A stretch of 34,657 bases of DNA, taken from a virus. Taxonomy: Duplodnaviria; Caudoviricetes. Position 1 is the stretch's first letter; every line of letters starts with the position of its first letter. Positions 1-32,269 of the stretch are shown here, in pieces. The position numbers were made by a program, and so were the translations under genes. The notes beneath the pieces were generated by a model that worked only from the letters and a program-made list of their open reading frames with translations, was not told the origin of the DNA and did no database searches. The stretch spans positions 1-34,657 of the IMG/VR virus record IMGVR_UViG_3300033076_001306; one strand, given 5' to 3'.

Positions 1-66
1 AGCCGTGGGAGCGCAACCCGCACTAGCAGGCTGTTTGGCTTCGGGTGTGTTTGTGTTGGTTTCCAT
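1..66 (-). CDS. 5' part of a cassette-type ORF running off the window (METNTNTPEAKQPASAGCAPTA...)
   Basis: ATG at 66 just after the stop of 71..430; open to window edge; start lies inside the attC-like loop. Confidence 0.4.
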   Translation of the reverse strand, partial: METNTNTPEAKQPASAGCAPTA

Positions 67-107
67 AAGTTTATTCGGGTGCGGGTGCATCCACATTGGC
101 GTTCAGC
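1..107 (+). mobile_element. attC-like site 1 (left end truncated by window)
   Basis: Imperfect inverted repeat GTGGGAGCGCAACCCGCAC ... GTGCGGGTGCATCCAC with bulged bases, ending in GTTCAGC at 101-107. Confidence 0.7.
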
Positions 108-430
108 AGATAATTCACCAACCGCGTCGGGGTGTTGATGATCGGCCCGCCCTTGTGTTGCACGATTCCCCCGGAATGGACGTAGGTCATCACCGTGCCT
201 CGATCATCACCGAGAGCGTGCGCGACTTCGCGGATTTGATCGTCGATCTCCATCCAGAAGTGTTTGTAGATCCGCGCTTCGTGAGGTTGCTTGAAGCCTG
301 GGGCGCATCGGTCCATGAACTTCTCAAATTCGTTTCCCCACTTGACGAGTCTCCCGATGATACGGGCGATGTCCTGCGGCGTTGTCTCTTGGCCGAAGCC
401 TCGGCAGATTGTGTTGTCGGCGTTTTTCAT
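71..430 (-). CDS. hypothetical protein (cassette 1)
   Basis: ORF 71..451 with likely ATG at 430 (MKNADN...); lies between attC-like sites. Confidence 0.65.
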   Translation of the reverse strand: MKNADNTICRGFGQETTPQDIARIIGRLVKWGNEFEKFMDRCAPGFKQPHEARIYKHFWMEIDDQIREVAHALGDDRGTVMTYVHSGGIVQHKGGPIINTPTRLVNYLLNANVDAPAPE

Positions 431-442
431 AATTCGGAAGAT

Positions 443-538
443 GCTGAACAAGTGAGTGGATTTGATCCGGAATGAGCGGGCCAGTTTTGATGCTATGGCT
501 TTTCAACGGCTCCGGGCGCATCACTCCCGGCGTTGTGT
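443..538 (+). mobile_element. attC-like site 2
   Basis: GCTGAAC (443-449) ... GAGTG-G-AT..TCCGGA / TCCGGG..AT-CACTC ... GTTGTGT (532-538); TGCTGAAC is the reverse complement of GTTCAGCA at 101-108. Confidence 0.7.
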
Positions 539-861
539 GGAATTGTAGGAATAGGCATCCACCCTCTGAGATCGCGGTTGTCTTCCGTCTCAAACTCCCA
601 CCAGCAATCATGCACTTCCGTGCTTTCCACGGTTTCCGCACTCGCGTTGTAAACCGCCACATTCCAGGTGCAGCTCATCCGGGACCATGCGGCAGGGACC
701 AGCCACGGCCAGCCGAAGTCAGCGAGGATCATTGTGCCGTCGTGCGGGGCCGTCTCCGCAGCCAATAAAACCACACCCCCTTCCGGTCGCTTGGGAGAGA
801 GACAGCTTTGACAGATGAGTTGTGGCTCATTGTGTCTTTTGAGGCATGAGGGGCAGATCAT
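493..861 (-). CDS. hypothetical protein with N-terminal CxxC..CxxC and Trp-rich domain (cassette 2)
   Basis: 122-aa ORF; MICPSC...CQSC; C-terminal GWMPIP resembles small phage early proteins. Confidence 0.65.
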   Translation of the reverse strand: MICPSCLKRHNEPQLICQSCLSPKRPEGGVVLLAAETAPHDGTMILADFGWPWLVPAAWSRMSCTWNVAVYNASAETVESTEVHDCWWEFETEDNRDLRGWMPIPTIPHNAGSDAPGAVEKP

Positions 862-880
862 AGTTCGCTTCCTTCAGAGG

Positions 881-909
881 TTCCGGGCGGGAGGGCTCCG
901 GCGTTAGGT
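881..909 (+). mobile_element. partial attC-like site (right arm only)
   Basis: TCCGGGCG...CTCCGGCGTTAGGT resembles the right arm of site 2 (TCCGGGCG...CTCCCGGCGTT); no matching left arm found. Confidence 0.45.
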
Positions 910-1194
910 GACTGCTCGCACATACACTTCCCACGAGTTTTTGAGCCGCATTCTTGCAGACTCGAATCCGATGTTGTCTTTGAATGACCACCCTTCACCG
1001 TTCCACGAAAAGAGGTCATACGACTCGTCGCCGCAATCGGTCAGGCGATACATCCCGCCGCCGTGGTTGCACAGATACACCACGTCACCTAACAAGAGCG
1101 GTGCAGCGAATGACTGCCCCGCCTTGCCGTTTCCGAGCGGCGTCGTGGTTTGTGGCCGCGTCTTGTCGTTGTTGCGTTTCTTCCGGGCAGTCAT
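904..1194 (-). CDS. hypothetical protein (cassette 3)
   Basis: 96-aa ORF; ATGA overlap with rusA stop; body flanked by GTTAGGTGAC (903-912) and GTCACCTAAC (1084-1093). Confidence 0.65.
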   Translation of the reverse strand: MTARKKRNNDKTRPQTTTPLGNGKAGQSFAAPLLLGDVVYLCNHGGGMYRLTDCGDESYDLFSWNGEGWSFKDNIGFESARMRLKNSWEVYVRAVT

Positions 1195-1215
1195 CGCTGA
1201 CCTTTCTCGTTCATC
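1087..1215 (+). mobile_element. attC-like site 3
   Basis: ACCTAAC-AAGAGC-GGT(G)CAGCGA(A)TGACTGCCC ... GGGCAGTCA-TCGCTG-ACC-TTTCTC-GTTCATC: paired arms with two extra bases spaced as in attC sites. Confidence 0.8.
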
Positions 1216-3335: not shown

Positions 3336-3776
3336 ATGGATACGAAAGAGCGCATCGATGCGCGACTCACCGCACTCGGGAAGGATCGCCAGTGGCTGGC
3401 TGATCAGACTGGCTACTCCTATTTCTCCGTCCGCGATTCGTTGGCCCCGGCAGGTCGGCCGTTGTCAAAGCGGATGGAGCGAGCCTTTTGCGAGGCACTG
3501 GAAGCGCTCGAACAGGTGACGCAGCTTGCTCCTTCGCTGCCGGATCGGGTGACACTGGAAGTCACGTCCGCAGAATATGACGCCTATTCCGAGGCGGCGT
3601 TGGCTCAGAAACAGACGCTCAAGCGCTGGGCGGTCGAAGAGCTGAACAAAGCGGCGGAAGCCTTCAAACGTAGTTCGGCCTATGAAAACCATGAGGAGTG
3701 GATTGCAAAGCAGGAGGTTCTTCGGGTCGCCGAAGAGCCGGAGCCGGGTAAATCCTACCGTTCTGGCCAGGGGTAG
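3336..3776 (+). CDS. phage repressor (XRE/HTH N-terminus)
   Basis: MDTKERIDARLTALGKDRQWLADQTGYSYFSVRDSL is a Cro/CI-type HTH; divergent to the early operon. Confidence 0.75.
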   Translation: MDTKERIDARLTALGKDRQWLADQTGYSYFSVRDSLAPAGRPLSKRMERAFCEALEALEQVTQLAPSLPDRVTLEVTSAEYDAYSEAALAQKQTLKRWAVEELNKAAEAFKRSSAYENHEEWIAKQEVLRVAEEPEPGKSYRSGQG

Positions 3777-3828: not shown

Positions 3829-4290
3829 TTATTGCCTATCACGAAAATCTTTAAGCAATTTATCATGGTCCGAAAGAACTCTGTCCAGTGCGCGATCTTG
3901 ATCAACTTGATGTTGGTTTTCCTCGAGTTCGTCCAACTTTTGAAGAATCTGATGCAGTTGATGTTCTGTCAGTTCATTGGAAATTTGCTCGTGGCTTTTC
4001 GGGATACTGTTTTCCTTGATCAAGGCGCTAGGTTCGATGGCTTCAAGTTTTTTGCTCAGGGAGTTGATAGTAAGCGAATTGCTTCTATCGGATGCGTCTA
4101 GAATTTTGGAAACCTCAAGAAGTTTTTGAACCAATGAATCTTGTTTGGAAAGTTGATCAGAAAGAAAGTTAATCTGCTGAGTCTGAACAGCTATTGTATT
4201 TCGGAATGCCTTATTTTCATGAAGTTGGTATCCGATAATGGCGGCAAAAATCGATACCGCCGTCAATGATCTCATCAAAACGCGCGTCAT
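3829..4290 (-). CDS. membrane-anchored coiled-coil protein (moron; possible superinfection exclusion)
   Basis: AT-rich; N-terminal hydrophobic helix SLTAVSIFAAIIGY then Q/L/E/K heptads; start at 4290 or 4275. Confidence 0.65.
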   Translation of the reverse strand: MTRVLMRSLTAVSIFAAIIGYQLHENKAFRNTIAVQTQQINFLSDQLSKQDSLVQKLLEVSKILDASDRSNSLTINSLSKKLEAIEPSALIKENSIPKSHEQISNELTEHQLHQILQKLDELEENQHQVDQDRALDRVLSDHDKLLKDFRDRQ

Positions 4291-5512
4291 GCCCAAATCC
4301 ACTAAATCAAGCTTTCGGGTGAGTCGAGGAACTTCCTCGCTGACGGTTTACCGGTGGATGCACCCGTCGACCGGTCGGCGCTGCTGGCGCTTCGGCTGGC
4401 TGGATGGGGATCGATGGAGGTACGTCACGCGGAAGACCCAGGCCGAGGCCGAGGTGGCGGCTGGCACGGTTCTTGAGGAGCAGGCGGAAGGTCTGGTGTG
4501 GTCGGCGTTGGCTCCGGCGCGGCGGCGCTTTCTGGAATCCGTGCACCGGCTTTGCCGGGAGGAAGAGGAAGAAACGTTTCTTATGTTCCTGAAGTCCCGG
4601 GAAAAGAGCGGTGAGATCGGGGCGGCGCTCGGTCGGTTTGCCCAGTGGAAGCGTGCCGAGGCGGGTGAGGATACCCCTTGGAACAAGCAGGTGCTTTCGA
4701 TCGCCAAGCGGCTGGGCGATCATTTCACGGGGCGGCTGGTGGTCGATATTCAGTTGTCGGATCTGAAAGAGTGGTGGGATCAGGACTCCGCCAACAAATC
4801 GGCGAAAACCAAGCGGGATCTGCGGGCGGTGCTGGTGGCGATCTGGAACTGGTTCAAGCGGGAGGGGATTGCGGGCAATGATGCGATGACGATTGCCGAG
4901 AGGATTCCCCTGCAGAAGGTTTCCCATGGCGAGCGGCGCGTCTTGTCGTCTGCCGAGGTGCTGGCGATCCTCGAAGAGGTCCGGCCGGAATGGCGCGCGT
5001 GGGTGGTGCTGGGGGCGTTTGCTGGAATCCGGCCGGAGGAGATTTGTCCGATGCCGAACAAAAAGGCGGCCAAGCGTGGACTCATGCGCCAGGAGATCGA
5101 TTGGAATTTCAACGTGATCCGGGTAGCTGGGACTGTGTCCAAGGTGGGAATTCCACGGGTAGTTCCGATGTCGGTAGCCTGTCGGGAGTGGCTGCTCTGG
5201 GCGGGAATCACTCCGGACTCGATCGGGCCGGTGTGTCTGTCGAATCCGGTACGCCGGAAAGAGACGCTCCGGCTCGGTGCCAAGCTCTTTGGGGGCGAGT
5301 GGCCGCAGGATGCGCTCCGGCATTCCTACGGATCGTATCGGAACGCGGTGGTCCGAAATCTCCAGCAGGTCGCCGAGGAAATGGGAACGTCGGTGATCAT
5401 GCTGCACCGGCACTATCACAATCCCCAGCCCGAGGAACTTGGCCAGGAATGGTTTGCCCTGCGTCCCTGTGATCCGACAAGATCCGATGAAACGAATGTT
5501 GTGGGCGAGTAA
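4289..5512 (+). CDS. int: tyrosine recombinase (phage integrase)
   Basis: Motifs GIRPEEI, SKVG, QDALRHSYGSY, MGTS..MLHRHY; adjacent to att core. Confidence 0.9.
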   Translation: MPKSTKSSFRVSRGTSSLTVYRWMHPSTGRRCWRFGWLDGDRWRYVTRKTQAEAEVAAGTVLEEQAEGLVWSALAPARRRFLESVHRLCREEEEETFLMFLKSREKSGEIGAALGRFAQWKRAEAGEDTPWNKQVLSIAKRLGDHFTGRLVVDIQLSDLKEWWDQDSANKSAKTKRDLRAVLVAIWNWFKREGIAGNDAMTIAERIPLQKVSHGERRVLSSAEVLAILEEVRPEWRAWVVLGAFAGIRPEEICPMPNKKAAKRGLMRQEIDWNFNVIRVAGTVSKVGIPRVVPMSVACREWLLWAGITPDSIGPVCLSNPVRRKETLRLGAKLFGGEWPQDALRHSYGSYRNAVVRNLQQVAEEMGTSVIMLHRHYHNPQPEELGQEWFALRPCDPTRSDETNVVGE

Positions 5513-9631: not shown

Positions 9632-12600
9632 TCAGTTGGCGGCGTTTTTCAGGAGGTTGTAGAGGTCCCGGACAAGGTGGGAAATCGAGGTGGAAGCGGC
9701 CATGGAGTCGCTGCCGGGGGACAGGAAGGTGAGGATCAACTCGGCGTCTTTCATCAGGTTGTCGACGTCTCCCTTGGCCAAGTGGTCGTCCATGCGGTCG
9801 TAGCGCTGGGCAAGCTGGCGGCCGGCGGAGAGGAGCGATCCATCCGTCTGCCATTGATCGAACGCGGCATTGATCGAGGACTCGATCTCCTTGCCAAGGA
9901 TCGGGATGCCTTGGAGCGGTCCGGTGAGGGTCTGGAGGGCCAGCTTGCGCGGGTCCCAGTTGCGTTCATCGAAAAACTCGTCGTCGCCATCGTCGCGCAT
10001 GTCGCGGAGGGCGGCGCGGATGACTGCGGCGAGGGCTCCGCCGACTCCCCAGGTGATGGCCACGGCCTTGAGCTTTTCAGCGGTGGGTTTCTCGGCGAGG
10101 GCGTAGGCGGTGATGGCGAACTTCTGGCGGGCTTCCGAAGCGAAGGCCCACATCAGGCGCGCGGCGGGGCTGGTGGCGGTGAGTTCGTAGAGCGATCGAG
10201 CTCCGGGGCGGACGGGCTGGGCCACGCGATCGGTGCCACGCTCTGCGGCTTCGTGCGCGTAGTCCTCGGCCGCCTTGCCGGTGAGGCCTGACTTGGTGGC
10301 CTGGGCAAGCTGGTAGTCGTAGATGATCGCGTAGGTGCCGGCGGTGAACAGGGCGTCGGCCCCGTTGATCGTTTCGCCCATCTGGCGGACCAGGAACTTC
10401 AGGCGTGAGGGCTTGGAGGATGCCAGGCCTTCGAGCGACTGCCGGACCATGGGCGGCATTTCTTTGAGGCGGCGCTGGATGTAGTCCGACTGGTAGGCGG
10501 CTTTCCAGTTGGCTTGGCCGGTGGTGAGTTTGGCGAAGCGCTTCACGAACGAGGCGATCGGCATTTCGTAGGCGGCGGCGCCAAGCTGGAGGGATTGGAT
10601 GGCGAGGACGGAAACGCGACCGACGAGCGCGGCCTGGGAGGCACGGCCGAGGGCACGGGAGAACCAGCCATTGATCGCCAGGTGGGCGGCGGCATCGCGG
10701 ACTCCTCCCTGCGCGAAGTAGTCGATCCAGGCGCGGAGGATGTTCTTGGCCTCCTTGCCGGCGGCGGCCTCGATGCTGTTTCCGACTTCGCGGTTGTTGA
10801 GGAGGTTCATGGCCTCCGTGGCGAAGGGAGTGTACGCCATCCAGTGTTCCATCTGCTTGGTGTGCGCGATGAACGTCTGGAGGGCATCGGTGAAGCGGGG
10901 TTCGGCCACGGCGGTCTGCGAGCGCGTGCGAAGGCTGCCGGGCGTGAGGGATGCACCGGTCATGGTTGAGCCGGTCACCGGGTCCATCATCTGGCCAGCC
11001 GCGGCGGCCACGGGTGCCACGGTGATCGGGGAATAGAACTTGTGGCGCGGGAGGTTCACTCCGTAGAGCGACTGGAACACGGCGTTGAGGCGGTCATACT
11101 CCTGAGCGTATTCCTCCATGAGGTGGAGACGGACGGCCTTGGCGGTGCTGGAGAGCTGGGCCTCGATCGCGTCGATGTCCTGCTGTCGCCAGTGCCAATC
11201 TCCGTTCGGGGTGTTGGTCTCCTCGGAAAAGTGTCCCTCCATGTGGCGCTTTCCGTCCTCCTGCATCCACATGAGGGTGGCGGAAATGGCTTCCAGTTGG
11301 GAGAAGGTCTGGGTGCGGCCCTTGAAGTCCTTCACGGTGATGGCTCCGGGTTGGGCAAGGTCCCATCGAAGTTGTTCGCCTTTGAATTTCCCCTGGGCAA
11401 GGTCGGCGAAAAGCTCGTCGAGCGCGTCCATTTTCGCGTGGATGGCGTCGTGCTTGGCGCTGGCGGCGCGGCGTTCCCAGTCGGCCAGCATTTTCCCGAC
11501 CGGTGAATCCTGCCCGAAAGTCTTCTGGAGGACCTGCTCGAAGGAATAGAGGGAGAGGAGCGTCTGCTTGGCGCGGCCGATCTTGGTCCCGCTGTCCTTG
11601 ATTTCCCGGGTGAGGCGTTCCATGCGCTCGCCGGCCTTGCCGGTGTCGGCACGGAGGGAGTCGCGCGACTTGGCGCGGTCCTCGCGCTTGGCGGAAAGCT
11701 GGCGCTGGAAGGCGGCGTAGCCATTGGAGTAGATCCGGGTGGCTTCGAGGAGGGCGGCTTCGCGTCGGGCGGCGTCTGCCTTCCCCCAGTTCCCGGCGAG
11801 GGCGATCAGTCCGGCCTGCTGGAGGAGATGGGCTTGCTGCTCCGGGGTGGTGTCAACGTGGTTGGCCAGGTTGTCGAGGCGTTCCACCTCGGCCTCCACC
11901 TCCTGGGCGGTGAAGGTCATGGAATCCTCCACGGCGCGGAAGAGGTCGTGGATGTCGGCGCCGACTTTCCCGCGGGGCTTTTCACCGGCTTCCTTTTTCA
12001 GCGGGCGGGCCTGGTCGAGGAGCTTGCGGAACTCGGCGTCATACTGCCGGCGCATCCATCCCTCCAGCTCGGTGTCGGCCTTGGCCAGTTTCTCCTTGAG
12101 GAATGCCAGGCGGGTTTCCTCGCTGCCGAGGGAGGCGAGGGCGGTGTAGCCTCCGATGCGGCCGCGAACGTCGGCCGGGATGGCGGTGAGGATGGCGTCG
12201 AGACCGGCCAGGGCGCGGAGGATTTCCTGCTTGGGGGAATAGGCGGTGGCCTGCGTCTCGGTCTGGGAGGCGAGCCAGGCGTTGGTTTCCTCCCGGGCGA
12301 TCGTGCGGGCGGCTTTGATGTCGGCCTCGGCCTTGGCCATGGCTTCCTTCATGGTGGCGACGGAAGCCTGCTCCTGTTTGAGCTTTTCCCAGAGCGCATC
12401 CGGGGTCGGTTCGGAAATCAGGTTGGCGCTGTAGGCTTCCTGAGCTGCCTCAGATGGAAGGAGCTTCCCGCCGAAAACAGTGGGGGACACGCCATCGACT
12501 GCGTCATAGCCTCCGTAGGATGTTTCCCGGAATAGGTCCGGGTGTTGTTTCATGGCGGCGGCCTTTGACATGAGGCGGCCGTGCAGGTGGTCGACGGTGC

Positions 12601-15600
12601 CGTCGCGCTTGGTCACCGCCAGGAGTTCGTGAAGCGGGCGGGATTTGAGGGTGGTGAGATCGTTGGTCGAGAGGATTCCGTAGTGGCGGGCGTAGGCATC
12701 GCGCTCGAGCTCGTCGGCACGCTGGGCCTCGCGCATGGCGGCTTCCTTCTGGAGGGATTTCCGGAGGCGCTTGGATCCGGCGAGGAGTTCCACGCGCTCG
12801 GCGGCCAGGCGGAGCTCGTTGAAGTTCTTGGAAATCTTCGCCATCGCCTGCGCGCGGCGGATGGGGTCCTTCACGCGGGCAAGGGCATCACCCATCAAAG
12901 CGGCATTGCGCTCGCTGGGGGCGAGGGAGTAGGCGAAACGGTCGTCGGCTGGGTTGAAGCGACGGGAAAGCGGGATGACATTTCCGGCTTGATCGCGGGT
13001 GATTGCGGCGGCGGATTTGATCTGGGAGGGGTCAAAGATTGCCATTTCTTCCACGATGCCGTCGTCGTTCATGTCTAGGAAAAGGGCATCGATCGGCTGC
13101 GATGGGTTTGGAGCGGTGACTTTGTTTCCTGCTTTGGTGAGGGGATTGTCGGCGCGGAGGTAAGCGGAGTATTGGTGATTTCCGTATTCCTTGTAATCGA
13201 TCTGGGAGGTGGCGAAAAATGTGCCGGCGCGGAAGTTCATGTATCCAGGCTGAATGCCTGCGGCTTTTCGTTCCCTCCACTGCTTCAGGAGGGTTTTGAC
13301 GTCTTCGAGGCTTTTGTCGCCATTGAGAATATCCCGTGCAAATGGAAGGAACGATTCAATGTTGGAGGCCGGGGAGTTGTGAAACACTGGTCCGATTGTG
13401 TAGCCTGCGGCCTTGGCTGCTTCATCGACCATGGCCTGCGCGGTCTCCATGTCGCCAGCCTTCACGGCGGCGAGGTAGTCGGCATCTTGCTGGGGGGAGA
13501 TTGAGAAAGCGGTTTCAAGGTCGACGGGCTTTCCGTTCTCCTCGGTGATCTGGATCTTGGACTCGTCGAAAATGACGTAGTTGTAGGAGCCGGTGCCGCT
13601 GTCGCGGCTGTTGCGATCAAGATAGCGGATGCCGGGGATGCCAATTTTCCAAAGTTCATAGGAAGCCGATTTGGCGGCTGAGTCTGAGATTCCCCACGGG
13701 CGTAATCCAAAGCGAAAATAGAGCCAGGCACCCGACGCTTGTTGGAGTTTTTCAACACTGTATCCTGAATCTGAAATGAATTTTTCAGAAAGGAATGGTG
13801 TAATGGCTTGGCGGATCTTTTCCGGCTGTTCCGAAAGCGGTTTGTCCCAGTCCAGCAGGTCCTCGTTGTTCACGTCGAGGGTGACGGTGTAGAGGTTGCC
13901 CAGCCAAGGTTTGAGATCCTTGAGGGTAGCCTCGAAAGATTGGTCAGGAAATGCGGATTGAAAGAGAGGGCGGGCTTGGTCTTCTGTCCGATGGCGCAGA
14001 AGCGTAGCCAGTCCATTGAGTGGCCCGTCTGGAATGTCTTGGCGGTTGCTGGATCGATAGGTGTTGGCGACGTCTTCCTGTTTGGCAAAGTAGAGCCCCC
14101 ATCCATAGGCCTGTTGGCCTTCCCCGGTGCCGATTTTGTCGAGGCTGAAGCGGTCCACCTTGTGCGGGGTTCCGTGGAAAGCCTTGATTGAGAACGAAAC
14201 CCCGGTGTCGGTGGCTGGAGTCTTTTCTCCGAAGTATCCAAATTCTGCCAGGTCATCCATGGCCCAGCGAACGTCCGAGGCTTTGGCCTGCGATTGCCAT
14301 ACCTTAAATTTCTCGGGATCTTGGGAATCGGCATGGGTGCGGGCGTATTCCTTGGAAAGGGAAACCCAGTCACCGGGATTCATTTCGGGAGCTGGTCCAG
14401 CTCGGAAGATGGTGAGGATGCCGTCTGGATTTCCTCGAACTTTCCGGAGTTGGGCCATGGTTTCGCGGATGATTTTTGCATCCATTCCGGAGTACCATTC
14501 CGGATGGTCGTAAACATCGGCTGGCATCAGGTCGTTTTCGGCCAGGTCAAAAGCCCGTGGTCCATCCTCAGAAGGGCGATGGGAAATGCCATAGTCTGGC
14601 GCGATCGAGAACGCGGCCGGACCGATCAGGGTCTTGCCGTCGGTGGTGTCGAAGGACCTTGTTGCCGGCGTCGGGAAAATGGTCGTGCGGCCGATCGAAA
14701 ACGGATCGCCTGCGCCGATGGCGTCCACGTTTTCCCCGGAGTAGTCGGTGCCGAGGAGCTCGGCGGTTTGCTTGGCGACTTCCTGGTTGTGCTGGTCCTG
14801 CTCGGTGGTGCCGAGGAGCTTGGCGAGGTAGGAATCGAGGGTGGAGGCGTCGAACTTGCCTTCACGCTCGGCCTTCTTCAGGGCGAGGGCACGGGAGAGG
14901 GAGAGGCCGAAGTGGGCACGGATGGCGTCCATGAAAGCCTTGAAGGTGTTGGCGGTCTTCTGTCCGACAATGCGGCCGATGGCGGTGAGGTTCCGGGTGA
15001 CGATGCCGGAAGGGGCGAGCTTGGTTTTCGAGCTGCTGCCGGTGCGACTGCGGAGGATCTCCATTTCGCCGACGTGGGAAATGGCCTCGTCGAGCATGGT
15101 GGCGGTGATCTGGTCGTCGGTGATTCCCTCCGGGAGAAAGCGGAGTTTTTCCGTGCGGCCGTTGGCGTCCATCTTGGTGGCCTTGCCTGCCAGGATAGTG
15201 TCTAGGGCGCGGAGGATGGCGATGTCGTCGGCACGGGTGAGACGGCCGGCGGCATGGGCTTCCCTGCGGAATCCGTGGAAGGCTTCGTGGAAAACGTCGG
15301 TCACGGTGGATCCGCGATAAAGGTCATTGATGGTACGGCGGAGGTTTCCAGCGATCTCGGTGGAGGATTTCCCGAGGATGGAATAGGCCATTTCCCCGGT
15401 GCCTCCGGCCATGCGTTCCTTGAGTGCAACCTGCTCGGCGTAGCGGGTGGCCTGCGCGGGGTCCTCAGCGGCCGCGATGGTTTCCGTCATGCCGGTCATC
15501 AGGGACAGGCGGGTGACTGTCTCATTGCTTCCCTGGTCGAGCTTCGAGACGGCATCGGCGGACTCCATCATGCTGGCCATGTAGGCCACGCGATCGGCGT

Positions 15601-17563
15601 CCAGGTCGTCCATGGTGGCGCTGTGGGTCTTGGCAAGGCGGAAGGCCTCGCTGGAGGTCGGGGCGGTGCCCACAAGCTCGCCGGTCTCGCCATCGAGGAC
15701 GGACCAACCGGAGGCGCTGCGCTGGAGCGTGGGGAGGACTCCGGAGCGCATGGCCTCCTGCTGCAGGGCGGAATCCTGCGCGAGGGCCTCCACGGCAGCC
15801 TTGGCGCTGTCGCTGCGGGGATCGAGCCGGGTGAAAGCGGATTCGATGGCGGCGATGCCGGAGGCGAGGCCTTTGGTGGCGCCCTCGCGGATCTTGGCGA
15901 GGTCGTCCGGGGAAACTCCGGCGGCGAGGATCTCGTTGTCGGTGGCCTGGGCGAAGGCCTTCACGCGGGCATCGGCTGAGATTCCGCCGGCGGCGCCGAA
16001 CATGGCCAGCGGCAGCATGGTGACGAACATCTCCGCGTTGTCGGCCCAGTAGCCATCCAGGACTCCGCCCGTGCCGGACCACTGGACGTCCGGGATGTCG
16101 GAGTCGAGCGCGTGGGCGATGTCCTGCACGGCGGAGGGGACCAGGTCCTGAGACTTTTCGAGGACGGCTTCCTCCGCGGCGCCGACCACGGCGCGGGCTC
16201 CGAAGCGGGCGGCTCTGTTGGCGATCTTGTCGGACAGGGAAGTGAGGGCTTTCTCGAAGAGCGGGAGCTTGCCGGCGAAGGTCTCGATCTGGAGGCGTTC
16301 CATGAGGACCTGCGGAAGCGCGGCGACGGTGGAAAGCGTGGTCGCCTGTTGGGCGGCCTGCTCGTAGGGCATGCCCTGGTCCTGCAGCTTCTGGCGGAGT
16401 TCCTGATAAATCGACTCCTGACTGGAAAAGTAGAAGGCGGACATTCCGACGCCAGGGATGGCAGCCGCGGCGGAGGTCACGGCGGCACCGGGCGCGGCAT
16501 AGAGGCCTTTTTCCGCGATCTGTCGCCATGATTCATCCGGGGCGAGATACTTCATGGGATCGTAGTCGGCCTGTTGGATCCGCTGCACGTCGGCGCTGAA
16601 GTCGATCATTTCGCGGTCGACCTTGGCATTGGCGATGAATGGAGTCTGTTCCGGGTTTCCGGCGACGGTGGTGTAGTCGGAAAACATCCGGAGGCCATCG
16701 AGGGCGGATTGGCCAAAGCCCTTGATGTCGCGGCCGGATTGCTTGCTGAGATTGGCAAAAAAGGCGGGTTGTTCTTCCGCTGGGAGCGTGCCGGCAAGAA
16801 GTCTGAGCGCGGCCATGAAGCGGGGGCGCGCTTCGGTGGGGGTCTCGAAGTAGGCATTTCGAGCGGCGGTGGTGACGTCTCCTTTGCTCTGAAAGGCGCG
16901 CCAGATGGAATTGAGAGGAGCTTGGAACTCCCGGCGGGCCTCCGTGGCGGCGCGGCGGGTCTGGGTCCATGCCTCGTAGTAGTCGGCCTCCCGGGCTGGA
17001 TCGTAGCCAGGGGCGCGGGCGGCGGATTCTTTCCAAGTGGCAAATGTGGCTTTTCTGGAACCGCCCTCGAAAAAGTCCGTTGATTCAATCAGGTCCGATG
17101 TGGCGGCCTCGGTGATCAGCTTCGAGGTGATTTCCCGGGTGGACTTCCGGCGGGTGGCATCGGCCACGATCTCGGCGTGGAATGCTTCGTCATTCTCACG
17201 GCCTCGGCCTTCGAATAGCTGGTCGGCAAGCTGGGCGCGGAGGAGCTTGCGGGAAAGATCGTCGGGCGGGAGCGGTGCACCGTTGCTGTGGAGGGTGAGG
17301 AAGGCGTCGGTGGTGGCGATCCGGTAGGCGTCCTGCGGGGTGCGGGCAAAGGAAAGGTCCTTGTCCTTGAAGAAGGTCTCGGGCTCGAGCGCGGCCTTGT
17401 CGAGAGTCGCCTGGGATTTCTGGAACCAGTCAAGCTGGTCCTTGTCCTGCTGGCGCTGCTGCACGTCCCAGGGGTTTTCCCCAAAGGCCTGCGCCATGTC
17501 CGGCGGCGCGGATGACTGTGGGATGCCGGTGGTGAGATCGAGCGGAGCGGCGAGGGAATCCAT
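9632..17563 (-). CDS. large polyvalent internal virion (ejected) protein with HExxH motif and three ADP-ribosyltransferase-like modules
   Basis: 2643 aa following internal virion genes; VFHEAFHG; FHGT..GTGEG..YGWGLYFA; IFRAG..GDWVSLS..EFGY; VFHNS..GTFFA..IFDPSQIKS. Confidence 0.8.
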   Translation of the reverse strand: MDSLAAPLDLTTGIPQSSAPPDMAQAFGENPWDVQQRQQDKDQLDWFQKSQATLDKAALEPETFFKDKDLSFARTPQDAYRIATTDAFLTLHSNGAPLPPDDLSRKLLRAQLADQLFEGRGRENDEAFHAEIVADATRRKSTREITSKLITEAATSDLIESTDFFEGGSRKATFATWKESAARAPGYDPAREADYYEAWTQTRRAATEARREFQAPLNSIWRAFQSKGDVTTAARNAYFETPTEARPRFMAALRLLAGTLPAEEQPAFFANLSKQSGRDIKGFGQSALDGLRMFSDYTTVAGNPEQTPFIANAKVDREMIDFSADVQRIQQADYDPMKYLAPDESWRQIAEKGLYAAPGAAVTSAAAAIPGVGMSAFYFSSQESIYQELRQKLQDQGMPYEQAAQQATTLSTVAALPQVLMERLQIETFAGKLPLFEKALTSLSDKIANRAARFGARAVVGAAEEAVLEKSQDLVPSAVQDIAHALDSDIPDVQWSGTGGVLDGYWADNAEMFVTMLPLAMFGAAGGISADARVKAFAQATDNEILAAGVSPDDLAKIREGATKGLASGIAAIESAFTRLDPRSDSAKAAVEALAQDSALQQEAMRSGVLPTLQRSASGWSVLDGETGELVGTAPTSSEAFRLAKTHSATMDDLDADRVAYMASMMESADAVSKLDQGSNETVTRLSLMTGMTETIAAAEDPAQATRYAEQVALKERMAGGTGEMAYSILGKSSTEIAGNLRRTINDLYRGSTVTDVFHEAFHGFRREAHAAGRLTRADDIAILRALDTILAGKATKMDANGRTEKLRFLPEGITDDQITATMLDEAISHVGEMEILRSRTGSSSKTKLAPSGIVTRNLTAIGRIVGQKTANTFKAFMDAIRAHFGLSLSRALALKKAEREGKFDASTLDSYLAKLLGTTEQDQHNQEVAKQTAELLGTDYSGENVDAIGAGDPFSIGRTTIFPTPATRSFDTTDGKTLIGPAAFSIAPDYGISHRPSEDGPRAFDLAENDLMPADVYDHPEWYSGMDAKIIRETMAQLRKVRGNPDGILTIFRAGPAPEMNPGDWVSLSKEYARTHADSQDPEKFKVWQSQAKASDVRWAMDDLAEFGYFGEKTPATDTGVSFSIKAFHGTPHKVDRFSLDKIGTGEGQQAYGWGLYFAKQEDVANTYRSSNRQDIPDGPLNGLATLLRHRTEDQARPLFQSAFPDQSFEATLKDLKPWLGNLYTVTLDVNNEDLLDWDKPLSEQPEKIRQAITPFLSEKFISDSGYSVEKLQQASGAWLYFRFGLRPWGISDSAAKSASYELWKIGIPGIRYLDRNSRDSGTGSYNYVIFDESKIQITEENGKPVDLETAFSISPQQDADYLAAVKAGDMETAQAMVDEAAKAAGYTIGPVFHNSPASNIESFLPFARDILNGDKSLEDVKTLLKQWRERKAAGIQPGYMNFRAGTFFATSQIDYKEYGNHQYSAYLRADNPLTKAGNKVTAPNPSQPIDALFLDMNDDGIVEEMAIFDPSQIKSAAAITRDQAGNVIPLSRRFNPADDRFAYSLAPSERNAALMGDALARVKDPIRRAQAMAKISKNFNELRLAAERVELLAGSKRLRKSLQKEAAMREAQRADELERDAYARHYGILSTNDLTTLKSRPLHELLAVTKRDGTVDHLHGRLMSKAAAMKQHPDLFRETSYGGYDAVDGVSPTVFGGKLLPSEAAQEAYSANLISEPTPDALWEKLKQEQASVATMKEAMAKAEADIKAARTIAREETNAWLASQTETQATAYSPKQEILRALAGLDAILTAIPADVRGRIGGYTALASLGSEETRLAFLKEKLAKADTELEGWMRRQYDAEFRKLLDQARPLKKEAGEKPRGKVGADIHDLFRAVEDSMTFTAQEVEAEVERLDNLANHVDTTPEQQAHLLQQAGLIALAGNWGKADAARREAALLEATRIYSNGYAAFQRQLSAKREDRAKSRDSLRADTGKAGERMERLTREIKDSGTKIGRAKQTLLSLYSFEQVLQKTFGQDSPVGKMLADWERRAASAKHDAIHAKMDALDELFADLAQGKFKGEQLRWDLAQPGAITVKDFKGRTQTFSQLEAISATLMWMQEDGKRHMEGHFSEETNTPNGDWHWRQQDIDAIEAQLSSTAKAVRLHLMEEYAQEYDRLNAVFQSLYGVNLPRHKFYSPITVAPVAAAAGQMMDPVTGSTMTGASLTPGSLRTRSQTAVAEPRFTDALQTFIAHTKQMEHWMAYTPFATEAMNLLNNREVGNSIEAAAGKEAKNILRAWIDYFAQGGVRDAAAHLAINGWFSRALGRASQAALVGRVSVLAIQSLQLGAAAYEMPIASFVKRFAKLTTGQANWKAAYQSDYIQRRLKEMPPMVRQSLEGLASSKPSRLKFLVRQMGETINGADALFTAGTYAIIYDYQLAQATKSGLTGKAAEDYAHEAAERGTDRVAQPVRPGARSLYELTATSPAARLMWAFASEARQKFAITAYALAEKPTAEKLKAVAITWGVGGALAAVIRAALRDMRDDGDDEFFDERNWDPRKLALQTLTGPLQGIPILGKEIESSINAAFDQWQTDGSLLSAGRQLAQRYDRMDDHLAKGDVDNLMKDAELILTFLSPGSDSMAASTSISHLVRDLYNLLKNAAN

Positions 17564-29341: not shown

Positions 29342-29667
29342 AGTTCCACGCGGTGGAGGCGGTTGTTTCGGCGCTGGAATGTGAGGGTCCCGACGCAATG
29401 CTCGGCGGCATCGTTCAAGAGTGCGCCAAGCGGTCCGGCCGCTGCCCAGACGTGGAATTCCGCATCGGCACCGGCGCATGGGAACGGGATCAAGGCCGGG
29501 TGTTCGTGGTCCGGCGCGCGGCTTGGCACCCATCGACCCATGAAAAACACGGCATGCGAGGCATAGACCACGCCATGCTGGAGGTGGAAATCCAGTGCGG
29601 CAGTCCATGGAATGTGGGGAGGCCCGTCCCGATGATAGGCTTTGAAGGCACGGAGGTAGGGGGTCAT
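29311..29667 (-). CDS. hypothetical protein downstream of terL
   Basis: MTPYLRA... start overlaps the terL stop (ATGA). Confidence 0.65.
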   Translation of the reverse strand: MTPYLRAFKAYHRDGPPHIPWTAALDFHLQHGVVYASHAVFFMGRWVPSRAPDHEHPALIPFPCAGADAEFHVWAAAGPLGALLNDAAEHCVGTLTFQRRNNRLHRVELRHLFKRLHP

Positions 29668-31238
29668 CGTCTTGCGCGGGGGTGTCCGACTGCGCGGGGT
29701 TTTTCTGTTATGGTTCCACCGTCGAGGAGGCCCAGGTGGCGGGCTTCTCCGAAGGTGCGGAAGGCATCGGCGGAGTGTGAGAAGAGATCGTGTTTCGGCA
29801 TTTCCCGGAGGGTGGTGCCGGCGGGGTTGAGGTGCTTCGAGTAGCCTTCCAGGCAGGCGATGCCGGAGGGCATTTCCTCCCCGTTCTTTTCCCGGGCCGT
29901 GTCGCAATGGGTCTTGTGGAACCAACAATGCGGGAGGACGTCGCGGGTGTGGCCGATCCCGATCCACACGTCCGGCGTGCGGGGCACGATGACGCAGTTG
30001 GTGAGGCCGCATTCCTGGAGGGTCTGGAGGAAGCTCTTGCCGTCGTTGGGCGAGCGCTTGGCAGCATCGTGCGGGAGGAAGTTCTTGGTGATCGGCCGGC
30101 GATACTTGGCTTCCCAGGTGCGGATCTGGTCGACGTGGGCACCGGCGGACACTCCCTCGGTCTCGAACCAGTCGAGGACCAGGAAAAAGCGGCCGACCTG
30201 CTGGATGAGCCATTTGGCGCACTGGTCGCTCATGCCAAGGTCCCAGAAGGTGTAGAGCGGTTCGGCGAGTTCCTGGCCGAAGTCGCAGATTCGACCGGCG
30301 GCGCGGAGGTCCGCCATTTCGGTGCCGTAGATGGCGCCTTCCGCGATGGCCTCGAAGGCTTCGCCGGGGGTGGAGGGGAATTCTTTTTTCATGCCGTGGC
30401 CTTGTTCGGCTTGCTTGCGGTCGTACCAGAAAAGCTGGGGTAGGGTAAGGCGGACGCCGATCTCGCGGTGGAGCTTGTCCCCGTAGGCGAGGATTTCCGG
30501 GCGGATGGGTTGGTTGGTGTGGTCGAGCTGATAGCGGGGATCGTCATACCAGGGGAAGAAGTGGAAGCGGGAATCGATCTTCGACAGGGTGGCCGGATCC
30601 TGACGCATGGCGGCGGTCATGAGGCGGTAGTTGATTCCTACCTTTCCTCCTTCGTGGGTCGTCTCGATGTTCCGGATGTTTCCCGGGGTCATGGAGTTGA
30701 AGGCTCCGTTGACGATTTCCGTGGCCTTTTTTGGGGCCCAGATGGCGGTCTTTCCAAGCTCGGAAACGAGGAGGCGCTGGGGTGTGGATCCGCGGAGGGA
30801 AGTGGAGCATTTGGCGACGGAACCATTGGAGAAGGTGATCTGTTCAGTGTTGATCGAGGCCTGCACGGCCTGTTTGATGATCTTGCCGAGTCGCCAGGTG
30901 TCCGGGTGGATTTCCGGATCATCGAGCCGATCGTAGCACAGGCCCATCATGGCGAGCTTTGATTTCGCATCGTCGAGGGTGTAGTCGATGATGCCCGCGG
31001 TGAGGCCGGACTTGGAGAAAATCAGGTCGTCGGTGTAGAGGGGTCCGGCAATGAAGGTGGAGAATCCCAGTTTCCGCGCCTTGAGGACGTGGTTGCAATA
31101 CCAATAATTGTCGTAGAACCGGCGCTGGGCGAGGTTCGGCCTGAACTTCGTGAGGTTTCCATCGGCATCCCGGATCGTGTAGAGGTTGGAAATCCTCCAT
31201 TCACGGGATGCAAGCGGGGTCTGACGAAGGTCGAGCAT
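29664..31238 (-). CDS. terL: terminase large subunit
   Basis: LKARKLGFST (Walker A), LLVSELG, ETT, FFPWY, WDLGMSD, LPHDA, HD..SHSADAFR. Confidence 0.93.
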   Translation of the reverse strand: MLDLRQTPLASREWRISNLYTIRDADGNLTKFRPNLAQRRFYDNYWYCNHVLKARKLGFSTFIAGPLYTDDLIFSKSGLTAGIIDYTLDDAKSKLAMMGLCYDRLDDPEIHPDTWRLGKIIKQAVQASINTEQITFSNGSVAKCSTSLRGSTPQRLLVSELGKTAIWAPKKATEIVNGAFNSMTPGNIRNIETTHEGGKVGINYRLMTAAMRQDPATLSKIDSRFHFFPWYDDPRYQLDHTNQPIRPEILAYGDKLHREIGVRLTLPQLFWYDRKQAEQGHGMKKEFPSTPGEAFEAIAEGAIYGTEMADLRAAGRICDFGQELAEPLYTFWDLGMSDQCAKWLIQQVGRFFLVLDWFETEGVSAGAHVDQIRTWEAKYRRPITKNFLPHDAAKRSPNDGKSFLQTLQECGLTNCVIVPRTPDVWIGIGHTRDVLPHCWFHKTHCDTAREKNGEEMPSGIACLEGYSKHLNPAGTTLREMPKHDLFSHSADAFRTFGEARHLGLLDGGTITEKPRAVGHPRARR

Positions 31239-31268
31239 TCCTTGTTATGGCAACTGGAGTTTCAGGAA

Positions 31269-31664
31269 TTAGATGTTCGGTGGACCCTTGCGGGCGGCTT
31301 TCCGGTCGCGTTTCCGCTGGGCCGCCGCCATCCGCTCCAGGTCGGCGTCTGTCTTCGGTCGCTTGGGGTCATGGCGTATCGACGCGGATGACGGGCCACC
31401 ACCGGGCAAGCCGAAGGTTCCGGCCATCGCCATTGCTCCGGCGATGAATGCCAGCGCGGGCAGTCGCGAGCGGCGGACGAGGGGCGGCTCGGGTGCTTCG
31501 TATTCGACGTGCGCCGTGTTGATCGTGATGCCGCGCTCGGGCGGCTCGACGACCACGACGGGGCTTGCGGGCCGGTTGGCCATTGCTGCGACGACGGAGG
31601 CCGTCATCGTGGTCCTTCCATGGTCCACGTGGCCGATCATTCCGATATTGAGGTGAGGCTTCAT
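31269..31664 (-). CDS. EF-Tu N-terminal mimic protein (cassette-borne)
   Basis: [22 protein letters not shown]...[14 protein letters not shown] matches the EF-Tu P-loop and effector region; rest unrelated (hydrophobic segment, basic tail). Confidence 0.8.
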
Positions 31665-31680
31665 AGGTAGGTTCAAAGAC

Positions 31681-31767
31681 ACCGAACAAGGGCGGGGAGG
31701 CGATGCCGGTCAGCCGTTATCGGGTAGCGAGCCCTCGGGCGGCAACGCCTCCCGACCAGCGCTCACT
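31681..31767 (+). mobile_element. attC-like site 4 (solo cassette 31276-31761)
   Basis: ACCGAAC-AAGGG-CGG(G)GAGG-CG-ATGCCG...CGGCAA-CG-CCTCCCG-ACCAGC-GCT; CACCGAAC (31680-31687) complements GTTCGGTG (31275-31282). Confidence 0.7.
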
Positions 31768-32269
31768 GCAGCGGTGCCCGCGGCAGAGAATCGGCACTGC
31801 CGAGGCTGCGAATGGCGTCAACAAGTTGCTGGGCGGTGGTGTTTTCGGGAGAAGATGCGTCGAGTTCATTGTCGAGCTGGATGGCTTTCAGCGGGTCGAG
31901 CTTTTCGATCCGCATGGAGGAGGAGGTTTCGGATTCGTTGGTGGAGTGGGATTTGATCAGGTCGCCATTGGGGTCGTCCTGATTGGTGGGATCGAGCTTG
32001 GCGAGGGGCACGCGTACCACGCGGGCGAGGAAACGGCGCTTTTCCTGGATCGTGAGAAGGGACTCGTCGGCCGCTTTTTTCTGGAGGGCAAGGATGTAGG
32101 CCTCCACCTCGGGGTTTTTCCGGAGGCGCTTGGCGTTCTGGAGGGCGCTGGTGCGCTTGCATTGGAATCCTGCGGCCATGTAGGCGTCGACGAGCGTCGA
32201 GCCCTTGAGGAGCACGTCGGCGAAACGCTGGTGGCGTGGATCGCGCGGGATGGGGATCTCGTCAGACAT
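31763..32269 (-). CDS. terS: terminase small subunit
   Basis: RHQRFAD..AYMAAGF..AKRLRKNPEVEAYI..LTIQEKRRFLA..KLDPLKAIQL. Confidence 0.85.
   Translation of the reverse strand: MSDEIPIPRDPRHQRFADVLLKGSTLVDAYMAAGFQCKRTSALQNAKRLRKNPEVEAYILALQKKAADESLLTIQEKRRFLARVVRVPLAKLDPTNQDDPNGDLIKSHSTNESETSSSMRIEKLDPLKAIQLDNELDASSPENTTAQQLVDAIRSLGSADSLPRAPLQ

What the first reader, a model, noticed from the sequence alone, without database searches (positions are those of the whole stretch)
31275..31767. The EF-Tu mimic is a solo attC cassette inserted between terS and terL
Seen: GTTCGGTG (31275) and CACCGAAC (31680) bracket the gene, followed by an attC-like hairpin with canonical 5/6-nt spacers that ends at the terS stop. 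Its final GTT reads GCT, which may lock the cassette in place. Removing 31276-31761 leaves a ~38-nt terS-terL gap. Inference: integron-type insertion at a non-attI site delivered a putative counter-defence gene into the late operon.
Basis: partly seen in the sequence, partly recalled or inferred. Interest (0 to 1): 0.85.

Follow-up and report, generated by a model that had tools for sequence, protein, structure and literature searches.

The report
Swappable phage cassette with EF-Tu fragment
Between its two DNA-packaging genes this phage carries a one-gene, integron-style cassette written backwards, at a spot where related phages hold other cassettes; it was likely placed there by an integron integrase at a likely docking (attI-like) site, and its small protein, which begins with a piece of the translation factor EF-Tu, may serve as bait for host defences, which is untested.

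Summary
The cassette is real, but 'solo', 'non-attI' and 'locked' are not supported. 31681-31767 has canonical attC anatomy. It scores 23.7 bits on a model of host and phage attCs, but only 8.3 bits on a host-only model. Both breakpoints hold in relatives. Homologs diverge at the left G|TT. Near-identical phage contigs carry a different attC end at the same right G|CT (one study, low depth). The left flank looks like an attI simple site (AAY-N5/6-GTT), as in 9 of 11 phage array starts against 34 of 788 background. One relative has cassette-attI-IntI directly before terL. The gene runs antisense to the attC and takes its stop codon from the flank. The window holds a second inverted array at 1-1215. 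No exact empty site was found in 39 relatives. The protein is a basic C-terminal module; an EF-Tu N-terminal fragment is attached in 13 of 73 family clusters. A counter-defence role is untested.

The parts
31239..31275 (+). attI-like left flank (AAT-5 nt-G|TT at 31267-31277). It also supplies the cassette ORF's last codon and stop on the - strand
   Evidence: no hairpin; same flank with another cassette in L045, related ones in L046, L053, L061; AAY-N5/6-GTT in 9 of 11 phage array starts vs 34 of 788 background; attI function inferred
31276..31761 (+). 486-bp gene cassette from G|TT to G|CT
   Evidence: own core/inverse-core pair 9/9; left junction shared with L009 and with homolog C-termini; right junction shared with contigs in runs X2, X3, X6
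31269..31664 (-). 131-aa ORF antisense to the attC: EF-Tu-derived residues 2-57 (G1 P-loop region and switch-I piece, middle replaced by a Pro/Val linker), a hydrophobic Ala/Gly stretch, and a basic helix DPxRx[11 protein letters not shown]
   Evidence: PF00009 E 1.3e-8; TIGR00485 positions 10-73 of 394 only; alignment; AlphaFold2 model confident mainly in the C-terminal helix, mean pLDDT 63, pTM 0.26
31681..31767 (+). attC site (R'' AAC, 5-nt spacer, L'', L', 6-nt spacer, R' G|CT)
   Evidence: model R2 23.7 bits, E 1e-4; model R1 8.3 bits, a miss; the same site with G|TT on an unrelated 3.2-kb contig in run X6, 7 substitutions and a 1-nt shift over 78 nt
31763..32269 (-). terminase small subunit; its stop codon forms the right-hand recombination core
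   Evidence: PF03592 and phrog_51; same register in L065, whose last attC ends G|TT at the terS stop
29664..31238 (-). terminase large subunit (inferred)
   Evidence: no named Pfam or NCBIfam family; lies between terS and portal and carries Walker-type motifs read from the sequence; 63% identical to a Luteolibacter sp. LG18 protein
1..1215 (+). second array of attC cassettes with antisense ORFs in the presumed early region, cut by the contig start
   Evidence: R2 hits 1087-1215 (32.9 bits), 443-538 (23.1), 1-100 (11.6, cut); R'' boxes match GTT cores at 101 and 903

Best explanation
This is a 486-bp attC-bounded gene cassette with its gene antisense to the attC, sitting at a terS-terL site that holds different cassettes in related phages; it was likely inserted by an integron integrase acting in trans at a likely attI-type docking site, and its protein is a small basic-helix protein whose attached EF-Tu fragment possibly acts as bait. 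Shown: the attC anatomy, both junctions recurring in relatives, the antisense gene, the second array. Inferred step 1: the 37 nt next to terL are the core of an attI, probably left from a phage integron of the L067 type (cassettes-attI-intI-terL) that lost intI. Inferred step 2: an IntI of the Verrucomicrobia host, or of another phage, inserts and exchanges cassettes here; the terS stop region gives the fixed right-hand core, so any last attC ends in G|CT. Inferred step 3: because cassette genes are written on the bottom strand, they are transcribed with terS-terL, read through the AAC crossover as Asn and take a stop from whatever follows, so swaps keep the frame. Inferred step 4 (weakest, about 0.3): the conserved hydrophobic-plus-basic C-terminal module is the working core or scaffold, and the EF-Tu P-loop/switch-I peptide is an unfolded bait for a host factor that recognises EF-Tu domain I. 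It cannot be a GTPase.
For: Right junction: contigs in runs X2 and X3 match the terS 3' end (1 difference in 86 nt, 6 in 168 nt) and then carry another attC 3' arm up to the same G|CT; that arm subtype ends attCs in L016 and at window 88-103. Run X6 has this same attC ending at the G and going on with TT in another context. Left junction: L009 has the same 3' gene end and G|TTCGGTG followed by an attC; 18 of 24 homologs end in an Asn at this point, with 17 different tails. attI likeness. Phage IntI: L067 TIGR02249 282 bits (cut-off 265) directly before terL; L048 201 bits (truncated) and L009 247 bits are under the cut-off. Hosts: 86 of 201 genomes of the family of G001 (a Verrucomicrobiae genome) have IntI over the cut-off. 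Geometry: the longest ORF is on the bottom strand in 28 of 32 phage cassettes and on the top strand in 35 of 43 chromosomal ones. The full EF-Tu-fragment gene sits in a 7-attC inverted array in L034. Over 23 codons its L034 copy differs from a host-family tuf by 10 synonymous and 2 non-synonymous codons, which fits protein-level constraint.
Against: The host-only model misses the hairpin, and the second model contains phage attCs found by the first, so it leans towards phage sites. No exact empty site in 39 terL relatives; the 21 with short gaps (-7 to 21 nt) have other junction sequences. X2 and X3 are two samples of one study, with contigs of 151 and 205 nt at depth under 5. The window has no IntI, and loss of intI is not shown. 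In the integrated state the minimum-energy bottom-strand fold is not the canonical one. For the bait idea: RGITI is in 8 of 22 homologs and varies (R, Q, I, L) among very close ones; the P-loop Lys is replaced here; 60 of 73 family clusters show no EF-Tu match; the type IV Thoeris caspase is a promiscuous Arg protease and Avs7 binds EF-Tu domains II-III, which are absent here.
Confidence: 0.75

Rival explanations
1. One-off insertion of a cassette at a secondary (attG-type, GNT) site that happened to lie at the terS stop, giving a SALIN; the attI likeness is chance.
For: Only one attC at this locus; no IntI in the window; IntI inserts cassettes outside att sites and SALINs are common (10.1101/2022.09.11.507474); AAY-N5/6-GTT is short and occurs at 34 of 788 GTT sites.
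Against: The same flank carries another cassette in L045 and similar flanks start arrays in other relatives. A different attC end sits at the same G|CT in near-identical phage. L065 has an array ending at the terS stop in the same register. The attG consensus in that preprint is GWT, not GCT.
Confidence: 0.15
2. The block arrived by homologous recombination between related phages that already carried cassettes here, and the sites are now inert relics.
For: The complete close relative G407 (terL 76%) has neither attC nor IntI; the window's attC is divergent and its integrated fold is weaker; phage mosaicism needs no integrase.
Against: The junction in X2/X3 changes at the crossover base (2 extra bases match) while terS stays 96-99% identical, which homologous exchange in the flanks does not predict for a new partner cassette. 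The core/inverse-core pair is still perfect. This rival and the best explanation are not exclusive for how this one genome got its copy.
Confidence: 0.1
3. Cargo rival: the EF-Tu piece has no defence role. It is an accessory or decaying leader on a nucleic-acid- or ribosome-binding basic helix, which is the functional part.
For: The invariant columns are all in the C-terminal module; at least one other N-terminal domain and many short leaders replace the EF-Tu piece; the window's copy has 6 non-synonymous codon changes of 23 against tuf.
Against: GxxxxGK[TS] is kept in 13 of 22 homologs that are otherwise 44-92% identical, and L034 vs tuf shows 10 synonymous to 2 non-synonymous changes.
Confidence: 0.45

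Closest known systems
Phage-borne CALINs and integrons (Qi et al. 2023, PMC9892861)
   Same: attC-bounded cassettes in phage genomes without an integrase; phage attCs shown to recombine with IntI1; cargo proposed to include counter-defence methyltransferases.
   Different: In the main text (parts 1-4 of 7 read) I saw no report of ORFs systematically antisense to attC, reading through the crossover, or of a site at the terS-terL junction. Supplements were not seen and may show orientation.
SALINs and attG secondary-site insertion (10.1101/2022.09.11.507474)
   Same: A single attC with its gene and no integrase nearby.
   Different: The left flank is attI-like and reused by other cassettes; the core is GCT rather than GWT; the genome has a second array.
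Sedentary chromosomal integrons of Verrucomicrobia (for example G001, L126; L161-L172)
   Same: attC box architecture and spacers, attI simple-site pattern, IntI family (TIGR02249).
   Different: Cassette ORFs are on the top strand in 35 of 43 host cassettes and on the bottom strand in 28 of 32 phage ones. This gene family was found in 1 of 401 family genomes, and there in an inverted array near a terminase gene, not in the IntI-linked array.
EF-Tu (TIGR00485, PF00009) and defences that act on it: Lit protease, type IV Thoeris caspase, Avs7
   Same: Residues 2-57 match EF-Tu 10-73, including the Arg equivalent to R59 cut by the Thoeris caspase and the RGITI motif cut by Lit (site recalled, from no call).
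   Different: About 15% of EF-Tu; no G3-G5 motifs, no domains II-III; fused to an unrelated basic module. No paper on such a phage fragment in my searches.

Membership tests
attC site | R''(RYYYAAC)-5 nt-L''...L'-5/6 nt-R' with paired L boxes and an extra base in L'' | tested here: met
   L boxes 7/7, spacers 5 and 6, extra G as in 101 of 135 reference sites
attC site | R' core GTT | tested here: not met
   GCT in the integrated state; GTT would be restored in the excised circle from the cassette's own 5' end, and is present in the X6 copy
attC site | Scores on an attC covariance model | tested here: inconclusive
   miss on host-only R1 (8.3 bits); full-length 23.7 bits on R2; IntegronFinder's own model was not available
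attC site | Bottom strand folds into the recombinogenic hairpin | tested here: inconclusive
   predicted probability 0.04 integrated, 0.20 as circle; reference median 0.12; the integrated minimum-energy fold differs
attC site | Recombined by IntI | not testable with these tools
   needs an attC x attI assay
Integron gene cassette | Unit bounded by G|TT crossovers, found with other neighbours | tested here: met
Integron gene cassette | ORF on the attC top strand, ending at or before R'' | tested here: not met
   ORF on the bottom strand, stop outside the cassette. A 127-aa top-strand ORF has no Pfam match and was not searched further
attI site | Simple site: L box, 5-6 nt, G|TT, no hairpin, heading an array | tested here: met
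attI site | Adjacent to intI and preferred by IntI | tested here: not met
   no intI in this 97%-complete contig; adjacency holds in L067 and L009; preference untested
SALIN (single attC, no other att site, no integrase) | No other att site nearby | tested here: inconclusive
   no other attC at this locus, but an attI-like flank; other attCs at 1-1215, possibly close across the contig gap
EF-Tu / translational GTPase | Complete G domain (G1-G5) and domains II-III | tested here: not met
   only model positions 10-73 of 394, 52 bits vs cut-off 522; no globular fold predicted
Anti-defence decoy | Protects phage from a named defence | not testable with these tools
   no assay; motif conservation is mixed

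The most novel reading that the evidence does not exclude
Verrucomicrobia phages run their own inverted integron system, with a live attI-type slot wired into the packaging operon at the terS stop, and one of the cassettes they trade displays the EF-Tu P-loop/switch-I peptide on a small scaffold to draw off an EF-Tu-directed abortive-infection effector late in infection.
Probability: 0.2. Interest if true: 0.85.

Novelty: new variant of a known kind. Interest (0 to 1): 0.58.

Why it matters
It gives a minimal, testable case of a phage using integron recombination for its own genes: one cassette, one attI-like flank, one fixed core at a gene's stop codon, and a natural alternative occupant. The antisense, frame-preserving layout would keep phage cassettes silent in host integrons and host cassettes silent in the phage (inference). 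The cargo defines an apparently undescribed family of small phage proteins, some carrying a conserved EF-Tu fragment; EF-Tu is a known target or cofactor of several defences, so the family is a direct candidate for screens. The inverted-array idea itself has come up repeatedly in this scan, so the new parts are the site and the cargo.

Tried and rejected
Exact empty site: none among 39 terL relatives; no read joint across the cassette in 4 runs, where cover was thin. A 17-nt flank pattern in viral contigs gave 69 matches, 1 with terL nearby (L230, the same contig as L045); the rest were treated as chance. A 24-nt attC pattern found 0 viral contigs. The hairpin as DNA query in 301 host-family genomes gave 6 weak partial matches, none scored as attC by my scan. 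The full protein as query in viral contigs returned 12 loci, all full-length tuf genes. First terL scan gave only 31-37% relatives. Lit family PF10463: 0 of 201 genomes, but the controls did not ring either, so this shows nothing. terS search in the records of L067, L048, L045, L046, L059: nothing rang, records incomplete, so terS-array-intI-terL order is not shown for L067. ESM Atlas: best feature score 0.79, no structure match over TM 0.41, no lead. PF00589 missed the window's own prophage-type integrase, which PHROGs found; it has no TIGR02249 match. No RNA holder listed. Reading the cassette as canonical on the - strand was rejected: spacers and the extra base fit only the + strand, and no hairpin follows the ORF. 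No complex prediction or fold search was run: the model is low-confidence and a pass with EF-Tu partners would reflect solved structures. Two loci from the genome scan (L035, L036) and L032 were weak matches and not used.

Full report
Setting. The window is one 34,657-base virus record, linear, 97% complete by CheckV. It encodes terS, portal, capsid and tail genes and a prophage-type integrase at 4238-5512 (phrog_1; no NCBIfam match, so not IntI). The putative terL has no named family but is 63% identical to a Luteolibacter sp. LG18 protein, and 49 of 301 genomes in the family of a Verrucomicrobiae genome (G001) carry a relative. The host is therefore probably a Verrucomicrobium (inference).

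The observation. All coordinates check: G|TTCGGTG at 31275, CACCGAAC at 31680, spacers of 5 and 6 nt, L boxes pairing 7/7 with one extra G, and G|CT at 31761-63 touching the terS stop. Removing 31276-31761 leaves 38 nt. The exact core partner has a background of 3 in 253, this site included. A covariance model from 32 attCs next to chromosomal IntI genes gave only a partial 8.3-bit hit, which counts against the site. A second model from 142 chromosomal and phage matches, none from this window, gave a full-length 23.7-bit hit, E about 1e-4 on a short calibration. The site is divergent but has attC anatomy.

Orientation. Spacers and the extra base place the attC top strand on +, while the ORF is on -. 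The ORF reads the crossover AAC as Asn, then takes Ile and TAA from the flank. This is the rule in these phages: the longest ORF between consecutive attCs is on the bottom strand in 28 of 32 phage intervals (6 loci) and on the top strand in 35 of 43 chromosomal intervals (4 loci) (a crude longest-ORF test). The window has a second such array at 1-1215, so the cassette is alone only at its locus.

Left breakpoint. Of 24 homologs, 18 end in an Asn at the matching place and then have 17 different tails. L009 has the same gene end and the same G|TTCGGTG, followed by an attC. The window's flank has no hairpin. It reads AAT-5 nt-G|TT. L045 (terL 68%) has the same TTCAGGAATTAG flank with another cassette, and L046 a similar one. 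At array starts located by the first cassette's core partner, 9 of 11 fit AAY-N5/6-GTT, against 34 of 788 GTT sites in the window; of the 16 loci, four were left out because the partner site was or looked like another attC end and one because no partner was found. By my reading, 8 of 10 attI candidates beside chromosomal IntI genes fit too; 20 of the 30 IntI loci had no attC in view. L067 has cassette-attI-IntI (TIGR02249 282 bits, over cut-off) directly before terL; L048 has a truncated IntI-like gene there (201 bits); L009 has array-attI-IntI-like (247 bits) elsewhere. The left end is thus best read as an attI-like site, not a random target. Loss of intI from this lineage is inferred, not shown; terS was not found in the incomplete L067 and L048 records.

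Right breakpoint. Contigs in runs X2 and X3 match the terS 3' end (1 of 86 and 6 of 168 letters differ) and leave the window at 31759, carrying another attC 3' arm that ends at the same G|CT. That arm subtype ends attCs in L016 and at window 88-103. Both runs are from one study, and the contigs are short and under depth 5. In run X6 an unrelated 3.2-kb contig holds this same attC (31684-31761, 7 substitutions, one 1-nt shift), ending at the G and going on with TT. In L065 an array ends G|TT at the terS stop in the same register. Of 39 terL relatives, 21 have gaps of -7 to 21 nt, 9 have longer gaps (4 of them, 3 distinct phages, with attCs), and 9 lack terS in view. None shows the 38-nt empty site. 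The complete 76% relative G407 has no attC and no IntI.

Is GCT a lock? With IntI1, wild-type attC x attI1-GCT recombines normally, attC-GCT x attI1 drops about 6-fold and GCT x GCT 30-fold (PMC2811028, section 14 and passages read; their mutants had complementary changes, so they are not identical to this site). On the bottom strand the GCT makes a G-T pair. The predicted chance of the canonical fold is 0.04 in place and 0.19-0.20 with GTT or as a circle; 41 of 135 reference sites are lower. GCT is better read as the phage-side core that every last cassette inherits. It may slow excision; it is not shown to block it.

The cargo. Residues 2-57 match EF-Tu positions 10-73 only. There are about 21 full-length homologs. 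A search with the C-terminal 74 residues found 73 clusters, 13 with an EF-Tu match by a profile I built from 18 tuf fragments; three hits look like low-complexity chance matches and were kept in the count. Invariant residues all lie in the C-terminal module. GxxxxGK[TS] is kept in 13 of 22 and RGITI in 8 of 22. Over 23 codons, L034 vs tuf shows 10 synonymous and 2 non-synonymous changes, the window vs tuf 7 and 6: selection in the family, some drift here. AlphaFold2 gives no globular fold; only the basic helix is confident. The family was found in 1 of 401 host-family genomes, in an inverted 7-attC array near a terminase gene (L034), not in that genome's IntI-linked array. 'EF-Tu mimic' is therefore a fair label for the fragment but not a shown function. 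Type IV Thoeris caspase cuts EF-Tu after R45 and R59 but is promiscuous (10.1101/2024.10.24.620036, passages); Avs7 binds domains II-III (10.64898/2026.01.04.697583, passages). Lit's cut in RGITI is recalled, from no call. I put the bait model at about 0.3 and a role carried by the basic helix alone at about 0.45.

Novelty. Phage attC clusters and IntI activity on them are in print (PMC9892861, parts 1-4 of 7 read; supplements not seen and may show orientation). SALINs and attG insertion are in print (10.1101/2022.09.11.507474, passages). Searches for inverted phage arrays found nothing on point (listings only), nor for phage EF-Tu fragments (listings only); the library lacks most subscription papers. 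Within this scan 11 earlier findings describe inverted arrays on other DNA; none matched this sequence or a terS-terL site. Verdict: a new variant of a known kind, interest 0.58.

Noticed in passing
window 1-1215: Second inverted attC array, cut by the contig start. The last attC's R' is formed by the 3' coding end of the RusA-like gene, much as the terS stop forms it at the main site. The cassette from 532 to about 903 ends in what looks like a truncated attC lacking its R'' box.
   Followed up: partly
window 4238-5512 (+): 424-aa prophage-type tyrosine integrase (phrog_1, E 7e-13) missed by PF00589 and NCBIfam; with the divergent gene at about 3336-3776 it suggests a temperate phage.
   Followed up: partly
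L067:430-1413 and L048:3-821: IntI or IntI-like genes directly abutting terL on the same strand; L067 has a GAAC-N4-GTTC palindrome between attI and the intI start, possibly a LexA-type box (recalled motif, untested).
   Followed up: partly
L020:2432-3223: terS followed after about 16 nt by an inverted attC and a gene with the same C-terminal module but no EF-Tu part.
   Followed up: partly
P0021, P0022, P0024, P0026, P0027, P0253, P0283, P0303; L009:1267-1926: A second N-terminal domain (starting EPLHVYDWLD) fused to the same C-terminal module; P0283 carries a decayed EF-Tu piece, this domain and the module together, so the leaders are shuffled.
   Followed up: no
window 9632-17563 (-): 2643-aa polyvalent protein with an ART-PolyVal domain (E 1.8e-9).
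   Followed up: no
L126 (G001:C1:105000-120800): Chromosomal integron with at least 30 near-identical attCs; the same genome holds a separate inverted array at a probable prophage edge (L034).
   Followed up: partly
L245-L256: Twelve IMG/VR contigs with full-length tuf genes, two of them 370-500 kb; phage-encoded or host DNA was not checked.
   Followed up: no
L065:330-1119 upstream of terL (coordinates): A cytosine-methyltransferase-like cassette gene in a terS-terL array, judged from its motifs only.
   Followed up: no
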